Assembly: GCA_902538185.1 (NCBI GenBank) | Contig: CACBED010000001.1 | Span: 184,285 to 248,284, forward strand | Source: an uncultured OCS116 cluster bacterium | GTDB lineage: Bacteria; Pseudomonadota; Alphaproteobacteria; Rhizobiales; TMED25 | DNA length: 64,000 nt | Direction of reading: 5' to 3' | Shown: positions 10,117 through 16,306 of the stretch, in pieces | Layout of the letters: each line of letters starts with the position of its first letter | How positions within the stretch are numbered: the stretch's first letter is position 1 | Made by a program: the position numbers and the translations under genes | The notes under the pieces: generated by a model | The model's input: the letters and a program-made list of their open reading frames with translations, nothing else | What the model was told of the DNA's origin: nothing | The model's database searches: none

Positions 10117-10944
10117 TTATTCAAACAGATCGTTATGGGGTAATGGATAATTGGTAATTAATAGCTCTTTACCGACACCCGCATGAGCTTTTTTGATATT
10201 ATTCATTCCATACTGCAACTGCCATTCTTTTTGGTTAAAATCTTTGTATAGATTTGTAATAAATTCACAATTATCGTAGGTAATTAAAAATTGATGTTTA
10301 GTCTTGGATAATACTGCATGAAGACGCTCATGATCAAAGTCTATGTGAAGGTCACCATTTTTTCCGTAAAGTGCGGATTTACTTGCTGAAAAATAGGGGG
10401 GATCTATAAATAAAAATACATTATTTCCGCTCATTTTAATGATCTGCTCATAATCTTCTGAGTACAGTTTGAACTCTTTAATCACAGAATGTGACTGGCG
10501 TAATCTTTCGATAGATGTATGCGTAAACCTTTTCTGAAAGGACTCTTCTGAATAGCCGCCACTATCTGCAATACCTGAAAAAGTTATTCTATTTAAAATA
10601 AAAAAATCAATGCCGCGATCTAAAATTGTTAGATTTGAGTCTCTCCTTTCCATGACCTCCGCGTACAGCTTTTTACCATCTTTATAACTGTCACAAATAT
10701 TAATTAAGCGTAGACATAATTCATCTATATCCTCCTTAACTGAGTGCCATAGCGCATATAATTCATAATTCAAATCATTAGCAATTAGTTTTTTAACCTC
10801 AAAATCCTGTTGAATGTAAAAGCCAAAAGATCCCCCACCAAAAAAAGGCTCTCTATATTCTCTAAATTTTTCAGGAACAAAATCTCTAAGAAAGTTAATA
10901 GCTCTAGACTTTCCACCTGGGTATCTCAAGGGGCTCTTAATCAT
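10117..10944 (-). CDS. DNA N6-adenine methyltransferase, D12 class (Dam-like, alpha group)
   Basis: It has an N-terminal PLRYPGGKSR, the AdoMet motif I FFGGGS, and the catalytic motif IV DPPY (nt 10393-10404). The I-to-IV order indicates the alpha group. Confidence 0.85.
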   Translation of the reverse strand: MIKSPLRYPGGKSRAINFLRDFVPEKFREYREPFFGGGSFGFYIQQDFEVKKLIANDLNYELYALWHSVKEDIDELCLRLINICDSYKDGKKLYAEVMERRDSNLTILDRGIDFFILNRITFSGIADSGGYSEESFQKRFTHTSIERLRQSHSVIKEFKLYSEDYEQIIKMSGNNVFLFIDPPYFSASKSALYGKNGDLHIDFDHERLHAVLSKTKHQFLITYDNCEFITNLYKDFNQKEWQLQYGMNNIKKAHAGVGKELLITNYPLPHNDLFE

Positions 10945-11075: not shown

Positions 11076-13214
11076 ATGGCCCTTAGGGATTGTAAGTTTG
11101 AACGCACCTATAAAACCGATGAAGTCGGCAATGATGGTATGGGCCATTTCTACCAGGCTGCCCTAAAGAATTCAATTAAATGGAGAGCTGCATCGGGCTA
11201 TTTCACCTCATCATTTTTAGAACTCTTCAAAAAAGAAGTTCTGCAATTTGTAATAGATGGCGGTAAGATAGAATTAGTTTGCAGCCAAGTCCTAAAAGAA
11301 GATGATATAGAAAAGATAGAGAATGGCTATCTTTTGCGGTACAGCATTTACAATGAGATAATAGAAACTGTTTTACAGGAAATGATCGATAACGAAGATC
11401 ATAAGGATGCAATCGGGTTTCTTGCAACGCTCATTAAGTTCGAGAAACTTGATATAAAAATTAATTTTTACAAAGACAAGAATGGAATTATGCATATTAA
11501 AAGCGGCTATTTCTCTGACAAAAACAATAAAGATGCCGTTGCCTATAACGGTTCTGGAAATCTTACATATATGGGGGCTGGAGAAGAGGGAAATTTTGAA
11601 ACGCATGATGTATTTAATTCATGGGATGAGACCGATAGGTATCAAGATAAAAAAGAATTGGTTGATGAGTTATGGGAAAATAAAAGGAAAAATCATGAAG
11701 TGATTGATTTTCCTGAGGTTGCCAAGGATCGACTTAGGACCTATTCCAAAAATGATTTAGCAGAGCTAGATACGCCAAATATAAAGAAAAATAATTATAG
11801 TTCTGCATCCCAAAATAGTGATCCTGGGACGAAGGTTGCATTGAAAAAAAGTAAATTAGACAACCTATTTCCATATCAGGAAGAAACTATAGAAAATTGG
11901 TATAAAAATTCACAAAGAGGAATTATTAAGCATGCAACTGGCGTTGGCAAGACCATCACAGCATTAAAGATAGTTTATGATCATATGGAAAAAGGAAAGC
12001 CTGTGCTCATTATTGTTCCAACGGACCCACTGCAAGCTCAATGGCATAAAGAAATAAGAAATGAAATATCAAATGCTTCAGTCGTTCTCTGCGGTGGGAA
12101 GGGTAATAACAAATGGAAAAACATGAATTTCTATCATATGCTAAAAAGTACTGTAAATAACAATCCTGGGCTCATAATAATTAGCGTGGTTAAGACGGCC
12201 ACAGAAAATGAAACATTCCAAAACAAAATATCGAATAATTTATCAGATGCATTGCTCGTCGTCGACGAAGTGCATCACATTGCAACAAAAAATAGAATTA
12301 AAATTTTGGATTTTCAAGTCGAATCAAAGTTAGGGTTAAGTGCAACCCCTGACATATATAACGATGATGATAATTACTACAACAGAATAATTGATTATTT
12401 TGGAGGCATTATTGAACCAAAAATTGAATTAAAAGATGCGATTTGGAAATATGGTAGACTTTCTTTTTATGAGTATCATCCAAATTTTCTATATCTCACT
12501 GAGTCAGAGGAAGATGAATGGTTAAGCTATACAAAGAGAATAAAAAAACTCAGAGGGATAAAAAATAGTAGTAAAAGTGACTCCAATAAAATTGATCAGG
12601 ATATTAAATTGCTACTAATACAGAGGGCGAGGATAGTTAAAACGGCAGAAAATAAAGCCACAGTTATTCCTGAGATTTTGGAAAAGTATTATCTACCTGG
12701 ACAGTCTTGGCTCATTTATTGCCAAGAGGATACACAGTTATCTGAAGCAAAGAGATTAGTTGATGAATGCCAGATAGAATATATTTTTCAGTACACCTCA
12801 AAGAATATAGGTAATAGAGATGTCGAGCTAGATAATTTTAAAAATATGGGAGGGGTTCTGCTTGCAGTGAATTGTCTTGATGAAGGTATTGATATACCAC
12901 AAATCACGCACGCCATTATACTAGCTTCATCAAAGAATCCTCGACAGTTTGTTCAGAGAAGGGGCAGAGTATTAAGAAAGGGAGCCGGTAACAAAAGCAA
13001 TGCCCATATATACGACTGTTTCATTGAGCCAAAGGACAATTACGAAGACTTTGATGGAATTATGCGAAATGAGATGAAAAGAGCAGAGGAGATGGCAGAC
13101 GCAGCCACAAATAAAGACTCATCGTTGCTACTCATCAGAGAAAGACTTGATTTACTTATTGAAAATAGTATAGAATTCTCTGGTCTTTATGATGAGAATG
13201 AAGAAAATTACTAA
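11076..13214 (+). CDS. HKD (phospholipase-D family) nuclease domain fused to SF2 DEAD/DEAH-type (ResIII-like) helicase
   Basis: There is a single HKD motif, MHIKSGYFSD...NGSGNLT (nt 11493-11561). The helicase motifs are I HATGVGKT (11934-11954), II VVDEVHH (12264-12275), III LSATP and VI QRRGRVLR. Confidence 0.85.
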   Translation: MALRDCKFERTYKTDEVGNDGMGHFYQAALKNSIKWRAASGYFTSSFLELFKKEVLQFVIDGGKIELVCSQVLKEDDIEKIENGYLLRYSIYNEIIETVLQEMIDNEDHKDAIGFLATLIKFEKLDIKINFYKDKNGIMHIKSGYFSDKNNKDAVAYNGSGNLTYMGAGEEGNFETHDVFNSWDETDRYQDKKELVDELWENKRKNHEVIDFPEVAKDRLRTYSKNDLAELDTPNIKKNNYSSASQNSDPGTKVALKKSKLDNLFPYQEETIENWYKNSQRGIIKHATGVGKTITALKIVYDHMEKGKPVLIIVPTDPLQAQWHKEIRNEISNASVVLCGGKGNNKWKNMNFYHMLKSTVNNNPGLIIISVVKTATENETFQNKISNNLSDALLVVDEVHHIATKNRIKILDFQVESKLGLSATPDIYNDDDNYYNRIIDYFGGIIEPKIELKDAIWKYGRLSFYEYHPNFLYLTESEEDEWLSYTKRIKKLRGIKNSSKSDSNKIDQDIKLLLIQRARIVKTAENKATVIPEILEKYYLPGQSWLIYCQEDTQLSEAKRLVDECQIEYIFQYTSKNIGNRDVELDNFKNMGGVLLAVNCLDEGIDIPQITHAIILASSKNPRQFVQRRGRVLRKGAGNKSNAHIYDCFIEPKDNYEDFDGIMRNEMKRAEEMADAATNKDSSLLLIRERLDLLIENSIEFSGLYDENEENY

Positions 13215-13235: not shown

Positions 13236-13436
13236 ATGACAAATCCGCAGAAAATTACAAGCGTTAGACTTCTCAAGGACTCACTGGAGAAATCAGATGA
13301 GTCTTCAGAGCTTCAAATAAATCATGATCTGCTTGAAAAATTATATGAGATGTTTGCGAATGAAACAACTTATCCTAATAAAAGTCCTATAAATGGACTT
13401 CAACGTATATTGGATACGCATAATGGAAATAAATGA
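13236..13436 (+). CDS. 66-aa acidic hypothetical micro-protein between helicase and ATPase genes
   Basis: The ORF starts 21 nt after the helicase stop. Its stop overlaps the ATPase ATG (13423) by 14 nt. There is no obvious Shine-Dalgarno sequence and no recognisable motif. Confidence 0.35.
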   Translation: MTNPQKITSVRLLKDSLEKSDESSELQINHDLLEKLYEMFANETTYPNKSPINGLQRILDTHNGNK

Positions 13437-15396
13437 AATCAAGCTCGAAAATTGGATGCCGTATTACGGCAAGCAATCTATTCAATTATCTCACGGAAAA
13501 GATAGAAATGTAAATATTGTACTTGCAAGAAACGGTAAAGGTAAAACATCTGTTATGTATGCTGTATTTTGGTGTTTATACGGTAAGGTTATGGATAACA
13601 GGACAAGAGAACAATTAGCCGAAAGTGAATATTTAAATTTTCGTGCTTTGGATGAGGGTGACCTTAGGTGCTCAGTTCAAATCATTTTCATGCATAAGGG
13701 GATAGAGTATGAGTTTACAAGAGCTGCTGATTATTCTGGGGGGGATGCAAAAACCACATTCTCAGCCCGCAGGGATCGAGCCAGTATTAGTAACACTGAT
13801 GCACAATCCGAAATTTTAAGGATAGTTCCAGAAAGAATGGCAAGGTTTTGGTTGCTTGATGCTAAGCTACTAGATGAATATTTCCAGCTTCTCGCCTCAA
13901 AGAGTCATGGGCAAGTCAAAGAATTTGAGAGAGATATTAAAAAAGCATTGGGCTTTGAAGTTTTTCAGACTGCGGAAAATCTGTTCGGTCAATATCATGG
14001 TAAGCTAAATTCCATGGTAAAAAATGACGCAGCTCAGGATAAAAGGAAAGTGAAACTAGTCGATGAACACAACATAGTAACAACTAAGATTAAAAATGCA
14101 GATGAAGAGATAAAAAACCTCGAGAAGATAATAGAAGACAATCAAGTTATAGTAGATCAGGTTAGTAATGCGATTAAAGATGTTCAGGAGCTTGCCGAAG
14201 CGAGTGCTAGTATAAAAGCAAATAAAATAAAAATTGATGAATGTGACAATAAAATAGAGGTATTGGAAGGCGAATTACGAAAATTGAATGATGGCTTGTG
14301 GTCATGTATCTTTGTTGAAGAAAGCAGGGATTTACAAAGTAAAACCCAAAATCGAATTAATCAAATCATGATGGAACAAAATAATTTCCGTGATATTGAA
14401 GCAAAAGTTGAAGTAATAAGAAATTCTTTAAATAATGAATGCTGTGAAATATGTAATTCGCCAGTTAGCCAATCAGCATCAGATTTTCTAAATAGGAAGC
14501 TTACAGAATTGGAGAGTAAAATCAATGTTCAGGATCAGGAAGATGAAAAACATTTTTTGAGAAATACACTAAATATACTAAAAGAAGCTGAAAAAGATGC
14601 TGACATGAAGGTCAAACAAAAGGTAATCGACATTTCAAATGATATTGGAAAGATACATACAGATAGAGTTGGTTACGAGACTCTTTACAATGAAGCGAAA
14701 GACAAAAGAAAAAATTATAACACCAATGATCTCTCCCTAGATCAGGAGATTAAGAAGTTAAAGACAGCCGAAAACATGATTGAGCGATCACAAACCGGTA
14801 TTAAGGATCAAAACGAAATCATAGAAAAGGCTAACGATAGGATTAAAGAGATAGAAGACACCGATTTATGGAAAGCGACTATTGAGAGCAGTGGTAATAA
14901 AAAAAAATTAGACCAATTAAATGCTCTAATATCAATCTTTAAATCTGCAAATAACGCCTATGTAAAGGAATTCGGTGAAGGTATTGAGGATACTGCAAAT
15001 GAGATATTTACAGAGATGTACACAGCAGAGACAGCAAAAAAGAAAATTAACCTGAACAGAAGATTTGGGCTAGATCTATACATTGGAAATAAAAAAATGC
15101 GTTATAGCACAGGAATGGCGGTTATGTCTCTACTCACTTTTTCATTGGCACTCAACAGATATCAAGAATTTGAGAGGCCAATGATTACCGATGAAATATT
15201 ATCTGATCTTGATGATGAACACAAAAGTAGCACCATTAAGTCACTTGCAAATTTATCTAGTCAGGTTCTGATATTTGCCCATAGCGGTACACAAATTGAA
15301 AACATTAAAGAATTGCTGCAGGATAGACTGGGTTATTACTACACAATTGATAATATAGACGAGCATTATAATTCTATCAAAAAAGAGCAGATTTGA
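13423..15396 (+). CDS. Rad50/SbcC/DndD-like SMC-type ABC ATPase with long coiled coil and central CxxC (zinc-hook-like)
   Basis: The N-terminal IKLENWMPYYG...LARNGKGKTS is a Walker A (13525-13548). About 340 aa of K/E/N/I-rich coiled-coil-like sequence follows, with CCEIC at its centre (14440-14454). The C-terminal part has the signature-like YSTGM, the Walker B PMITDE (15181-15195), the D-loop SDLD and the H-loop FAHS. I prefer the ATG at 13423 over the listed 13393 because the ABC N-terminal consensus begins there. Confidence 0.8.
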   Translation: MEINEIKLENWMPYYGKQSIQLSHGKDRNVNIVLARNGKGKTSVMYAVFWCLYGKVMDNRTREQLAESEYLNFRALDEGDLRCSVQIIFMHKGIEYEFTRAADYSGGDAKTTFSARRDRASISNTDAQSEILRIVPERMARFWLLDAKLLDEYFQLLASKSHGQVKEFERDIKKALGFEVFQTAENLFGQYHGKLNSMVKNDAAQDKRKVKLVDEHNIVTTKIKNADEEIKNLEKIIEDNQVIVDQVSNAIKDVQELAEASASIKANKIKIDECDNKIEVLEGELRKLNDGLWSCIFVEESRDLQSKTQNRINQIMMEQNNFRDIEAKVEVIRNSLNNECCEICNSPVSQSASDFLNRKLTELESKINVQDQEDEKHFLRNTLNILKEAEKDADMKVKQKVIDISNDIGKIHTDRVGYETLYNEAKDKRKNYNTNDLSLDQEIKKLKTAENMIERSQTGIKDQNEIIEKANDRIKEIEDTDLWKATIESSGNKKKLDQLNALISIFKSANNAYVKEFGEGIEDTANEIFTEMYTAETAKKKINLNRRFGLDLYIGNKKMRYSTGMAVMSLLTFSLALNRYQEFERPMITDEILSDLDDEHKSSTIKSLANLSSQVLIFAHSGTQIENIKELLQDRLGYYYTIDNIDEHYNSIKKEQI

Positions 15397-15779
15397 TGTA
15401 CTTTAATTTTGAAAAATTTAAAAGATTTGGATTTGATGAGGCCGAAGACGTTATCGTTAAAAAATGGGTTGAGAACAAAATATTTAGTGATGAAAAGTAT
15501 GCTTTTCAGCTTGCATTAGCATTAGCTAATAAACTTCATTTAAAGCCTCAAATTATGAAAAGATTTAAGCAGAAATATGCACCGGGCACTGTGGATTCTG
15601 TTACTGCACTTTGTGAGTTGACAGCAAATAATTACGCTAAAGAATATCCTGATAAATGCGCGCAAGATACCATACATGTACTGGCGTCAATGCTTGCTTC
15701 TGCGGGAGTGAGATATATAGATGAAAATATTATATTAGATGGACAAAATATTGATATAGAAAAGTTGTTCCAAAATTAA
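15396..15779 (+). CDS. 127-aa hypothetical protein, last gene of the helicase/ATPase operon
   Basis: Its ATG overlaps the ATPase stop as TGATG. It looks helical and has no motif I can name. Its size and position resemble dndE after dndD, but homology is unverified. Confidence 0.55.
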   Translation: MYFNFEKFKRFGFDEAEDVIVKKWVENKIFSDEKYAFQLALALANKLHLKPQIMKRFKQKYAPGTVDSVTALCELTANNYAKEYPDKCAQDTIHVLASMLASAGVRYIDENIILDGQNIDIEKLFQN

Positions 15780-15817: not shown

Positions 15818-16306
15818 TTATTCAAATTTAGATTTATATTTCTGAACGATATATTGTATGTCGTCATTCCATTCTATTACAGCTTTCTCCATGCCTCTGA
15901 AATTTCTATTCTTATCGAGGAAACCAATTATTGTTCTCAATAATTTGTTATAGCGCTTTTTAGAATTTGGCTCTCCCCACTCTTGCATATATGCGCCTCC
16001 GCCGATAAAAGGAAGTTGCTGAGTCATTACTTCATCAATAATATATCGCCTGCTTTTCTCTGGTGCACCCATATTTCCAACATTATAACCCATAAGGGAT
16101 AGCAAGCCTTTCTCTGGACGCAAAGCTTTTTTATGGGGGAACTTCATTGCAATTTCTGATCTCCTGGCCCATTCAGATCTTATTATGATAATTTGCTCTT
16201 CGGCTTGTGCTTTCACAGTTGGTTTCTCAAGATATTTAATTGCATTTTCGTATAACCGGAAAATCTCAATATCATTTAATTTCTTAATTTTATCAGCTGA
16301 GATCAT
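15818..16306 (-). CDS. 162-aa basic hypothetical protein, convergent with the operon
   Basis: This is a clean ORF filling the gap between the operon end and the ThDP-enzyme gene. It is K/R-rich and I recognise no family. Confidence 0.5.
   Translation of the reverse strand: MISADKIKKLNDIEIFRLYENAIKYLEKPTVKAQAEEQIIIIRSEWARRSEIAMKFPHKKALRPEKGLLSLMGYNVGNMGAPEKSRRYIIDEVMTQQLPFIGGGAYMQEWGEPNSKKRYNKLLRTIIGFLDKNRNFRGMEKAVIEWNDDIQYIVQKYKSKFE

What the first reader, a model, noticed from the sequence alone, without database searches (positions are those of the whole stretch)
13423..15396. Rad50-like ABC ATPase with a CxxC hook at the midpoint of its coiled coil
The split ABC head has Walker A LARNGKGKTS at the N-terminus. 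The C-terminus carries YSTGM, Walker B MITDE, D-loop SDLD and H-loop FAHS. The two halves are separated by about 340 residues of K/E/N/I/D-rich sequence with few helix breakers. The only cysteine cluster in that region is NNECCEICNSP (nt 14440-14454), about 52% along the chain. That is where Rad50 and SbcC carry the zinc-hook CxxC that bridges two molecules. Among defence-associated proteins, a hook-bearing ABC ATPase is known in RloC (a restriction-linked anticodon nuclease). This protein has no extra effector domain, so its partner nuclease would presumably be the HKD-helicase.
Basis: partly seen in the sequence, partly recalled or inferred. Interest (0 to 1): 0.75.

Follow-up and report, generated by a model that had tools for sequence, protein, structure and literature searches.

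The report
PbeC defence ATPase with zinc hook
The gene encodes a Rad50-like ATPase whose conserved cysteine pair sits at the tip of its coiled coil, but this is the already described PbeC subunit of the PbeABCD anti-phage system, here in a divergent copy next to a Dam-type adenine methylase.

Summary
ORF 13423-15396 (+) encodes a 657-aa split ABC ATPase with all the cited motifs and a cysteine cluster, C340-C341-x-x-C344, at 52% of its length.

The hook reading is well supported:
- C341 and C344 are each present in 114 of 115 aligned homologs that are only about 20% identical. The family consensus is CP[TVL]CGQ.
- An AlphaFold2 model (pLDDT 91.8) places them in the only non-helical turn between the two long arms.
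- A profile of this region finds the P. furiosus Rad50 zinc-hook crystal structure as its best PDB match, with the cysteines aligned.

The feature is not new. The protein is PbeC (PADLOC E 5e-58), which the literature calls the "CxC-clade Zn-hook ABC ATPase", sister to DndD. The whole pbeABCD cassette is present: HKD-helicase PbeA, a 66-aa PbeB, PbeC and a 128-aa PbeD.

What is particular here:
- No dnd (phosphorothioation) genes occur in the 64-kb window.
- A divergently transcribed Dam-family methylase is the only modification gene. Only one of 80 related loci shares it.
- The ATPase active site is rewired.

Zinc binding and dimerisation remain untested. Verdict: a new, divergent member of a known kind; modest interest.

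The parts
10117..10944 (-). Dam-family (D12 class) N6-adenine DNA methyltransferase. It is transcribed divergently from pbeA and is the candidate self-marking module.
   Evidence: Pfam MethyltransfD12 E 3e-38. NCBIfam TIGR00571 dam scores 116 bits against a cut-off of 114.85. PADLOC MTase_II E 1e-105. The same arrangement occurs in L001. The functional link to Pbe is inferred, not shown.
11076..13214 (+). pbeA: HKD (PLD-family) nuclease domain fused to an SF2 helicase/translocase.
   Evidence: PADLOC PbeA E 3e-176. Pfam ResIII E 2e-25, Helicase_C, and a weak PLDc_2 hit. The HKD motif is intact: H140-I-K...GSGN. NCBIfam dnd_restrict_1 scores 318 bits, below its 600-bit cut-off.
13236..13436 (+). 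pbeB candidate: a 66-aa small protein. Its stop overlaps the pbeC start by 14 nt.
   Evidence: An ORF of 50-90 aa fills the pbeA-pbeC gap in 73 related loci. Sequence similarity exists only to L001 (E 2e-23). PbeB of H. jeotgali is also 66 aa, and the family is described as a rapidly evolving small protein.
13423..15396 (+). [quoted passage not shown] This is the finding.
   Evidence: PADLOC PbeC E 4.8e-58 over the full length. 2129 homologs at E<=1e-3. AF2 model with pLDDT 91.8 and pTM 0.70.
14443..14454 (+). Hook: C341-E-I-C344, the predicted zinc ligands at the coiled-coil apex. The loop spans residues 339-349, nt 14437-14469.
   Evidence: Each Cys is present in 114 of 115 homologs. In the AF2 model, helix 207-338, a non-helical stretch 339-349 and helix 350-365 follow one another, with block pLDDT of 93 and 90. 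The hook profile aligns CPtCgq onto CPVCGR of the Rad50 hook 1L8D at E 1.9e-5.
15396..15779 (+). pbeD candidate: 127-128 aa. Its ATG overlaps the pbeC stop (TGATG); an alternative TTG start lies at 15393.
   Evidence: An ORF of about 125 aa lies directly downstream in 75 of 81 loci. It aligns with that family (A2, A5). The literature calls PbeD a DndE cognate. Here hhalign against canonical DndE gave only 37% probability, E 3.7e-4, and the AF2 model was of low confidence.
15818..16306 (-). 162-aa ORF of unknown function at the edge of the island. Whether it belongs to the system is unknown.
   Evidence: No Pfam, PADLOC or NCBIfam hit and no homolog in the 81 loci. In L001 this position holds a Cas4-like PD-(D/E)XK nuclease.

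Best explanation
The ORF is PbeC, the Zn-hook ('CxC-clade') ABC ATPase of a PbeABCD-type anti-phage cassette.

Proposed mechanism:
1. The N- and C-terminal halves form a Rad50-like ATPase head. The roughly 355 residues between them fold back into an antiparallel coiled coil.
2. The turn of that coiled coil (residues 339-349) presents C341 and C344.
3. Each chain offers only two conserved ligands, so two PbeC chains are expected to share one zinc ion. This joins them tip to tip as in Rad50/SbcC, while ATP joins the heads.
4. Together with the small downstream protein PbeD (reported to be a DndE-like DNA binder), this would give a DNA-clamping or DNA-scanning complex.
5. That complex licenses the upstream HKD-nuclease/SF2-translocase PbeA against DNA that lacks the host mark.
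6. PbeB is a small regulatory subunit.
7. In this locus the host mark is most likely N6-methyladenine made by the adjacent Dam-family methylase, rather than phosphorothioate.

What is shown here: family identity, cassette composition, conservation of the cysteine pair, its predicted apex position, and similarity to the Rad50 hook.

What is inferred: zinc binding, hook-mediated dimerisation, DNA scanning, the role of the methylase, and the restriction outcome.
For: Identity: PADLOC gives PbeC E 4.8e-58 and PbeA E 3e-176.

Cassette: pbeA lies directly upstream in 79 of 81 related loci. A pbeB-sized ORF is present in 73 and a pbeD-sized ORF in 75.

Hook:
- C341 and C344 are each present in 114 of 115 homologs. 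The consensus is C-P-[TVL]-C-G-Q.
- All 80 full-length relatives in genomes carry CxxC at 0.52-0.55 of their length.
- The AF2 model (pLDDT 91.8) puts the pair in the only loop between helices 207-338 and 350-365.
- The only proline of the coiled-coil region, P347, lies in this loop.
- The hook-only profile has the Rad50 hook structure 1L8D as its top PDB hit, with the cysteines in register.
- The full-length profile also hits the hook structures 1l8d, 5gox and 6zff.
- Foldseek's best hits are Rad50.

DndD paralogs in the same loci lack the cysteine pair, as the literature states.

Literature:
- PbeC is the CxC-type Zn-hook ABC ATPase, PbeA the HKD+SF2 protein, PbeB the small protein and PbeD the DndE cognate. 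These systems are often coupled to methylases instead of PT (PMC10853773).
- All four pbe genes are needed for protection, and 155 of 320 solitary pbeAC pairs lie near MTases (PMC6459918).

No dnd genes occur in the window. All four ORFs are intact and have overlapping stops and starts.
Against: - No experiment or solved structure shows zinc binding or hook dimerisation in any PbeC. The library search for 'DndD' together with 'zinc hook' returned no paper. No PDB sequence match to the single protein was found.
- The monomer AF2 model cannot show the intermolecular zinc site, and no model coordinates were available to measure how the arms pack.
- The window's hook (C-E-I-C-N-S) departs from the consensus CPxCGQ.
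- The DndE-like nature of PbeD could not be reproduced convincingly. hhalign probability was 37%, no Pfam DndE hit appeared, the model had pLDDT 66, and Foldseek found nothing.
- The methylase link rests on adjacency in only two related genomes, which share the same LysE flank. Of the 80 related loci, only L001 has a D12 methylase homolog.
- Xiong et al. saw no cleavage of viral DNA, so the effector step is uncertain.
- The ATPase site deviates from the family at E148K, R595D and E623T. This could mean altered or lost activity.
Confidence: 0.8

Rival explanations
1. The cassette is a canonical phosphorothioate-dependent PbeABCD whose dnd modification genes lie elsewhere in the genome, or it is an inactive solitary copy. 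Under this reading the neighbouring Dam-family methylase is an unrelated orphan or an R-M remnant in the same defence island. The hook reading of PbeC is unchanged.
For: The only experimentally tested Pbe system is PT-dependent. Of the 80 related loci, only L001 carries a D12 methylase, whereas 44 of the 79 loci analysed for flanking genes carry an N6_N4 methylase co-directional with pbeA and 18 carry dndD/E. In L001 a 448-aa unknown ORF sits next to the methylase and could be a lost restriction partner. The two loci share the LysE flank, so the adjacency may simply be inherited.
Against: No DndB/C/E homolog occurs anywhere in the 64-kb window. The methylase sits 131 nt from pbeA in a divergent promoter arrangement, and this is retained at 54% PbeC identity. 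Both source papers report frequent methylase coupling of solitary pbeAC.
Confidence: 0.2
2. The conserved cysteine pair is not an intermolecular zinc hook. It would instead be an intramolecular element, for example a disulfide or redox switch, or a metal site completed by other residues of the same chain or by PbeD.
For: Zinc binding has not been tested. The window protein has a third cysteine (C340) next to the pair. Some PbeC subfamilies use a CxC spacing instead, so the geometry is not strictly that of Rad50.
Against: There are only two conserved ligands per chain, and no other conserved Cys or His lies in the flanking columns. The consensus CPxCGQ and its flanks align in register with the Rad50 hook of 1L8D. 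C340 is not conserved outside the closest relative. The cytoplasm is reducing, a general point that makes a disulfide unlikely.
Confidence: 0.1
3. The protein is a DndD-type modification ATPase or a housekeeping Rad50/SbcC repair paralog, not a defence-system subunit.
For: There are weak full-length hits to DndD (PADLOC E 1.6e-25; TIGR03185 at 56 bits). Rad50 is the closest solved structure.
Against: The DndD score is far below its cut-off of 245.85 bits. DndD proteins lack the apex cysteines. No dndC/E or Mre11/SbcD-type partner is adjacent, and the flanking partners are PbeA, B and D. The coiled coil, at about 355 aa, is much shorter than that of SbcC or Rad50.
Confidence: 0.03

Closest known systems
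PbeC of PbeABCD, also called the 'CxC-clade' Zn-hook ABC ATPase (Xiong et al. 2019, PMC6459918; Rakesh et al. 2024, PMC10853773, which cites its ref. 24 for the first description)
   Same: - Full-length profile match.
- Length of about 650 aa.
- Coiled-coil insert with a Cys pair at the apex.
- Gene order pbeA (HKD+SF2) - pbeB (about 66 aa) - pbeC - pbeD (about 125 aa).
- Coupling to a DNA methylase instead of dnd genes is a known variant.
   Different: - Only 20-26% identical to every cluster representative; the one closer relative is 54% identical.
- The methylase is a divergently transcribed Dam-family N6-adenine enzyme, not the C5/N4 cytosine or co-directional N6_N4 methylases reported and seen in 44 of 79 loci.
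- It lacks the roughly 850-aa HARE-HTH protein that follows pbeD in 47 of 79 loci.
- The active site is rewired: E148K, T591E, R595D, E623T.
- The hook reads CEICNS rather than CPxCGQ.
Rad50 / SbcC zinc hook (for example P. furiosus Rad50, PDB 1L8D)
   Same: - Split ABC head.
- Antiparallel coiled coil.
- CxxC at the apex with the same CPxCG-type consensus in the family.
- Best sequence-profile and structural matches in the PDB.
   Different: - The coiled coil is much shorter.
- There is no Mre11/SbcD partner; the nuclease partner is an HKD-helicase.
- The Walker B region of the family is DTPxGRLD, without a catalytic Glu.
- The role is defence, not repair.
DndD (phosphorothioation ATPase)
   Same: Sister clade with the same size and head motifs (FFDGE, SAGExQ, DTPxGRLD). 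It is likewise paired with a small DNA-binding partner.
   Different: DndD has no apex cysteines. It is linked to dndC/E/B, which are absent here. The TIGR03185 score is far below its cut-off.
RloC (anticodon nuclease with a Rad50-like zinc hook; PMC2610378, PMC3458546)
   Different: RloC carries a C-terminal anticodon-nuclease domain and acts on tRNA. Here the chain ends with the ABC head and the effector is a separate HKD-helicase. No direct homology test to RloC was run.
Lamassu LmuB
   Same: An SMC/Rad50-like defence ATPase. Some clades keep a Zn-hook (PMC12663957). It gives a PADLOC hit at E 2e-17 and a Foldseek hit to 9hqu_A.
   Different: The profile match is much weaker than to PbeC. 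No LmuA or LmuC genes are adjacent.

Membership tests
PbeC / CxC-clade Zn-hook ABC ATPase | Full-length match to PbeC family profiles | tested here: met
   PADLOC PDLC02747 gives E 4.8e-58 over residues 3-622 of a 632-position model. More than 20 further PbeC models also hit.
PbeC / CxC-clade Zn-hook ABC ATPase | Split ABC head with a coiled-coil insert of about 400 residues | tested here: met
   Walker A, signature, Walker B, D-loop and H-loop are all located. The AF2 model shows long helices across 178-532.
PbeC / CxC-clade Zn-hook ABC ATPase | [quoted passage not shown] | tested here: met
   C341 and C344 are each present in 114 of 115 homologs and lie in loop 339-349 of the AF2 model. The spacing here is CxxC. 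Other PbeC subfamilies have CxC.
PbeC / CxC-clade Zn-hook ABC ATPase | Zinc binding and hook-mediated dimerisation | not testable with these tools
   This needs metal analysis, SEC-MALS, or a multimer structure prediction.
PbeABCD cassette | HKD nuclease + SF2 helicase (PbeA) directly upstream | tested here: met
   PADLOC PbeA E 3e-176. The HKD motif is intact. PbeA is upstream in 79 of 81 related loci.
PbeABCD cassette | Small PbeB ORF between pbeA and pbeC | tested here: met
   A 66-aa ORF lies at 13236-13436. ORFs of 50-90 aa occupy this gap in 73 loci. Membership rests on position and size only, because the sequence is not conserved.
PbeABCD cassette | PbeD directly downstream, homologous to DndE (two RHH domains) | tested here: inconclusive
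   The positional ortholog is present and aligns with the 125-aa family. For DndE homology, hhalign gave probability 37% and E 3.7e-4, there was no Pfam DndE hit, the AF2 model had pLDDT 66 and was all-helical, and Foldseek gave no match.
PbeABCD cassette | Linked DNA-modification module (dndCDEA or a methylase) | tested here: met
   No dnd genes occur in the window. A Dam-family methylase is adjacent. Functional coupling was not tested.
PbeABCD cassette | Confers phage resistance | not testable with these tools
   This needs a plaque assay with the cloned cassette.
Rad50 / SbcC | Rad50-type head and a CxxC zinc hook at the coiled-coil apex | tested here: met
   Profile against PDB Rad50 heads gives E 9e-21. 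Foldseek to 7zr1_C gives E 4e-21. The hook profile against 1L8D gives E 1.9e-5 with the cysteines aligned.
Rad50 / SbcC | Operonic Mre11/SbcD phosphoesterase partner | tested here: not met
   The neighbours are PbeA, PbeB, PbeD and a methylase. No metallophosphoesterase hit was found.
DndD | Score above the TIGR03185 cut-off and linkage to dndC/dndE | tested here: not met
   The score is 56.1 bits against a cut-off of 245.85. No dndB/C/E occurs in the window.
RloC | C-terminal anticodon-nuclease domain fused to the hook-bearing ATPase | tested here: not met
   The whole 657-aa chain is accounted for by the ABC head and the coiled coil. There is no extra domain.
Lamassu LmuB | Adjacent LmuA effector and LmuC | tested here: not met
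   The PADLOC LmuB hit is only E 2e-17 against 5e-58 for PbeC, and no neighbour hits LmuA or LmuC.

The most novel reading that the evidence does not exclude
The window and its single close relative define a distinct Pbe subtype with two special features. First, self/non-self marking would be done by a Dam-family N6-adenine methylase rather than by phosphorothioate or cytosine methylation. Second, the Zn-hook ATPase has reverted to a canonical Walker-B 'DE' catalytic site and lost the family's otherwise near-invariant E148, R595 and E623. On this reading it is a mechanistically different ATPase cycle inside a Rad50-like restriction machine that reads m6A.
Probability: 0.3. Interest if true: 0.45.

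Novelty: new member of a known kind. Interest (0 to 1): 0.27.

Why it matters
It shows that a tool-free reading of raw sequence can correctly recover a Rad50-type zinc hook. It also shows that the feature is the published hallmark of PbeC, so it is not a discovery.

Some real value remains:
1. The zinc hook of PbeC has, as far as the searched literature shows, only been predicted. The proposed C341A/C344A and zinc-content experiments are still worth doing.
2. How PbeABCD stops phage without visible DNA cleavage is unresolved. A compact, methylase-coupled, dnd-free cassette such as this 5.7-kb one would be a convenient model for it.
3. The coordinated active-site substitutions give a natural experiment on which glutamate drives ATP hydrolysis in the DndD/PbeC clade.

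Tried and rejected
- The word-indexed homolog search for PbeC found only 6 proteins. The exhaustive phmmer search was needed.
- The single-sequence PDB search found nothing. Profiles were needed.
- The look-up of encoding contigs could not locate the window's own protein, so the organism stayed unidentified. The genome scan pattern did not match the window's divergent FDGE region, so its own genome was not retrieved.
- Two attempts to read Krishnan et al. 2020, the first description of the CxC clade, failed because the paper is not held. Its content is cited only through PMC10853773.
- The test of PbeD as a DndE-like protein was inconclusive. There was no Pfam DndE hit in 68 members and no PDB sequence hit. 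hhalign probability was 37%. After a second database search the model had pLDDT of only 66, and Foldseek gave no match.
- A literature search for 'PbeC' from 2023 onward returned only unrelated uses of the acronym.
- Rfam, tRNA and promoter/terminator scans added nothing.
- GC content of the island (0.33-0.37) is only slightly below that of its flanks, so there is no clear signature of horizontal transfer.
- Readings as DndD, Rad50/SbcC, RloC or LmuB were considered and rejected on the membership tests.
Full report
**1. Observation**

The ORF is real. The ORF listing gives 13393..15396 (+), and translation from the finding's ATG at 13423 gives 657 aa. Homolog alignments and tblastn hits from DndD relatives all begin at residue 1 of the 13423 version, so 13423 is the likely start. 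The upstream 66-aa ORF ends at 13436 and overlaps it by 14 nt.

All cited motifs are present:
- LARNGKGKTS at 34-43
- YSTGM at 561-565
- MITDE at 587-591
- SDLD at 594-597
- FAHS at 618-621

The protein has seven cysteines, at 51, 83, 274, 295, 340, 341 and 344. The cluster CCEIC is encoded at nt 14440-14454 and lies at 52% of the chain. Residues 178-532 are 51% K/E/N/I/D. They contain a single proline, P347, next to the cysteines. From the stated start the pair is C341/C344.

**2. Is the cysteine pair meaningful?**

An exhaustive phmmer search of 1.84 billion representatives found 2129 homologs at E<=1e-3. The best 150 are almost all 640-670 aa and only 20-26% identical to the query. Of the 149 full-length homologs in hand, 144 carry a CxxC at residue 326-352 (438 in one longer protein). 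Four more distant ones carry CxC there, and one has neither.

In a 115-sequence alignment (A1), C341 and C344 are each present in 114 sequences. C340 is not conserved. The local consensus is C-P-[T/V/L]-C-G-Q-x-[L/I/V]. All 80 full-length relatives recovered from species-representative genomes carry CxxC at 0.52-0.55 of their length.

The AlphaFold2 model built on A1 is confident, with mean pLDDT 91.8 and pTM 0.70. It shows:
- a continuous helix at 207-338;
- a non-helical stretch at 339-349 that holds the cysteines, with block pLDDT of 93 and 90;
- further helices at 350-365, 373-392, 396-430, 439-478 and 491-532, which lead back to the C-terminal head lobe.

The two arms have comparable lengths of 161 and 183 residues. 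However, the N- and C-terminal lobes must meet to form the ABC head, and this forces the two arms to run antiparallel.

A profile of the hook region alone (A3) finds the P. furiosus Rad50 zinc-hook structure 1L8D as its best PDB hit (E 1.9e-5). The profile's CPtCgq aligns in register with Rad50's CPVCGR, and the flanks align as well. The full-length profile hits Rad50 heads at E 9e-21 and also the hook structures 1l8d, 5gox and 6zff. Foldseek's best structural matches are Rad50 (7zr1_C, E 4e-21), followed by other Rad50 entries, SMC, JetC, MukB and LmuB.

**3. What it is**

PADLOC identifies the protein as PbeC (E 4.8e-58, full length). It identifies the upstream 712-aa protein as PbeA (E 3e-176). 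PbeA combines a weak PLDc_2 hit, an intact HxK...GSxN motif at residue 140, and ResIII/Helicase_C domains.

In 81 related loci, pbeA lies directly upstream of pbeC in 79. A 50-90-aa ORF fills the gap between them in 73, and an ORF of about 125 aa follows pbeC in 75. The window has all of these. The 66-aa ORF lies at 13236-13436. The 128-aa ORF has an ATG at 15396 that overlaps the pbeC stop as TGATG. This is a complete pbeABCD cassette.

The literature already describes it:
- Xiong et al. [quoted passage not shown] They also found that 155 of 320 solitary pbeAC pairs lie near methylases (PMC6459918).
- Rakesh et al. 2024, citing their earlier classification of ABC ATPases, state the following. 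[quoted passage not shown] PbeA is an HKD endoDNase fused to an SF2 helicase. [quoted passage not shown]

My data reproduce the DndD contrast. DndD genes found in 18 of the related loci have no cysteine pair at the apex.

One refinement concerns the spacing. PADLOC PbeC models capture both CxC-hook proteins (P0003, P0004, P0006) and CxxC-hook proteins (P0007, P0008). The two differ by a one-residue indel at the hook. The window belongs to the CxxC subfamily (models PDLC02747/02725) but scores far lower than typical members, 195 bits against 976 for P0008.

**4. What is particular to this copy**

(a) Divergence. Only one relative above 26% identity was found: P0002, 54% identical, on Logan contig L001.

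(b) Modification module. No homolog of DndB, DndC, DndE, the N6_N4 methylase, MTaX1 or the roughly 850-aa protein was found anywhere in the 64-kb window (tblastn). The flanks are housekeeping genes: a LysE exporter, a Zn peptidase, CNNM and a TPP enzyme.

The only modification gene is a Dam-family D12 N6-adenine methylase at 10117-10944. It is transcribed divergently and sits 131 nt from pbeA.

Among the 79 related loci with pbeA, the neighbours were as follows:
- 44 have an N6_N4 methylase co-directional and directly upstream of pbeA;
- 47 have a roughly 850-aa RNA_pol_A_CTD/Sigma70_r4/HARE-HTH protein directly after pbeD;
- 18 have dndD and dndE, 14 have dndC and 6 have dndB;
- 7 have MTaX1.

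Only L001 has a D12 methylase like the window's. L001 shares the LysE flank, so the adjacency may be inherited rather than independently selected.

(c) Active site. The DndD/PbeC clade as a whole has FFDGE, SAGExQ, a Walker B region hhhDTPxGRLD with no Glu after the Asp, and a conserved Glu after the H-loop. The window protein and P0002 alone have K148, DE591, D595 and T/A623, and their signature motif reads xS[ST]GMAV (YSTGMAV in the window). This looks like a coordinated rewiring. E148/R595 becomes K148/D595, and the canonical Walker-B glutamate is regained. I could not follow it up structurally.

**5. Mechanism**

The best-supported reading is that PbeC dimerises in two ways: through ATP-engaged heads, and through a zinc ion shared between the two C341/C344 pairs, as in Rad50. 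Each chain offers only two conserved ligands, which argues for an intermolecular site.

With PbeD as a DNA-binding adaptor, the dimer would clamp or scan DNA. It would then license PbeA, the HKD nuclease-translocase, against DNA that lacks the host mark. PbeB would act as a regulator. Here the mark is probably m6A from the adjacent methylase.

Shown here: family identity, cassette structure, conservation of the cysteines, their predicted apex position, and Rad50-hook similarity. Inferred: zinc binding, dimerisation, scanning, the methylase coupling and the outcome for the invading DNA.

The DndE-like nature of PbeD rests on the literature. My own tests were inconclusive.

**6. Verdict**

The hook interpretation is strongly supported in silico, but the feature is the published hallmark of a known defence-system subunit.

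The locus is a new, divergent member of a known kind. Its Dam-type methylase partner is rare: only one of the 80 related loci has it. It also has an unusual ATPase active site. Interest is modest at 0.27. The zinc hook of PbeC and the mode of action of PbeABCD remain experimentally open, and this compact dnd-free cassette would be a reasonable model for studying them.

Noticed in passing
window 13423-15396 (PbeC residues 148, 566-567, 591, 595, 623): The window PbeC and its one close relative (P0002) differ from 113 other homologs at near-invariant head positions: E148K, T/S591E (restoring a canonical Walker-B 'DE'), R595D and E623T/A. The signature motif RSAGAEQ becomes xS[ST]GMAV (YSTGMAV in the window). 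DndD and mainstream PbeC all have DTPxGRLD with no Glu after the Walker B Asp. This looks like a coordinated rewiring of the catalytic site.
   Followed up: partly
related loci L002-L081, directly downstream of pbeD (e.g. L077:4584-7190): In 47 of 79 related loci a roughly 850-aa protein with RNA_pol_A_CTD, Sigma70_r4 and HARE-HTH domains follows pbeD on the same strand at a median distance of 3 nt, like a fifth cassette gene. It is absent from the window and from L001.
   Followed up: partly
related loci, directly upstream of pbeA (e.g. L046:7663-8847): 44 of 79 related loci carry an N6_N4_Mtase (PF01555) gene of about 375 aa, in most (38) lying upstream of pbeA and co-directional with it. 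7 carry MTaX1 and 18 carry dndD/E. The window instead has a divergently transcribed Dam-family D12 methylase, seen otherwise only in L001.
   Followed up: yes
PbeC family hook column (window residues 341-344): PADLOC PbeC models cover proteins with a CxC hook (P0003, P0004, P0006) and proteins with a CxxC hook (window, P0007, P0008). The two differ by a one-residue indel between the cysteines. The literature name 'CxC clade' therefore hides two hook spacings, and the CxxC form matches the Rad50 consensus CPxCG.
   Followed up: partly
window 15818-16306 (-): A 162-aa ORF at the island edge has no Pfam, PADLOC or NCBIfam hit and no homolog in the 81 loci. In L001 the same position holds a Cas4-like PD-(D/E)XK nuclease (L001:8501-9310), and L001 has an extra 448-aa unknown ORF beside the methylase.
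   Followed up: partly
window 15396-15779 (PbeD): The published assignment of PbeD as a DndE (double RHH) cognate could not be reproduced with confidence. None of 68 members hit Pfam DndE. hhalign against 18 canonical DndE sequences gave 37% probability over 106 colinear columns. The AF2 model had pLDDT 66 and was all-helical, and Foldseek found no match.
   Followed up: yes
window 13423-13436 and 15394-15398: The gene junctions overlap. The pbeB stop lies 14 nt inside pbeC, and the pbeC stop TGA shares its A with the pbeD ATG (TGATG). This suggests translational coupling of pbeB, pbeC and pbeD.
   Followed up: no
window 1-64000: No tRNA genes and no Rfam families reach threshold in the whole window. 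GC content of the Pbe island (0.33-0.37) is only slightly below that of its flanks (0.35-0.44).
   Followed up: no
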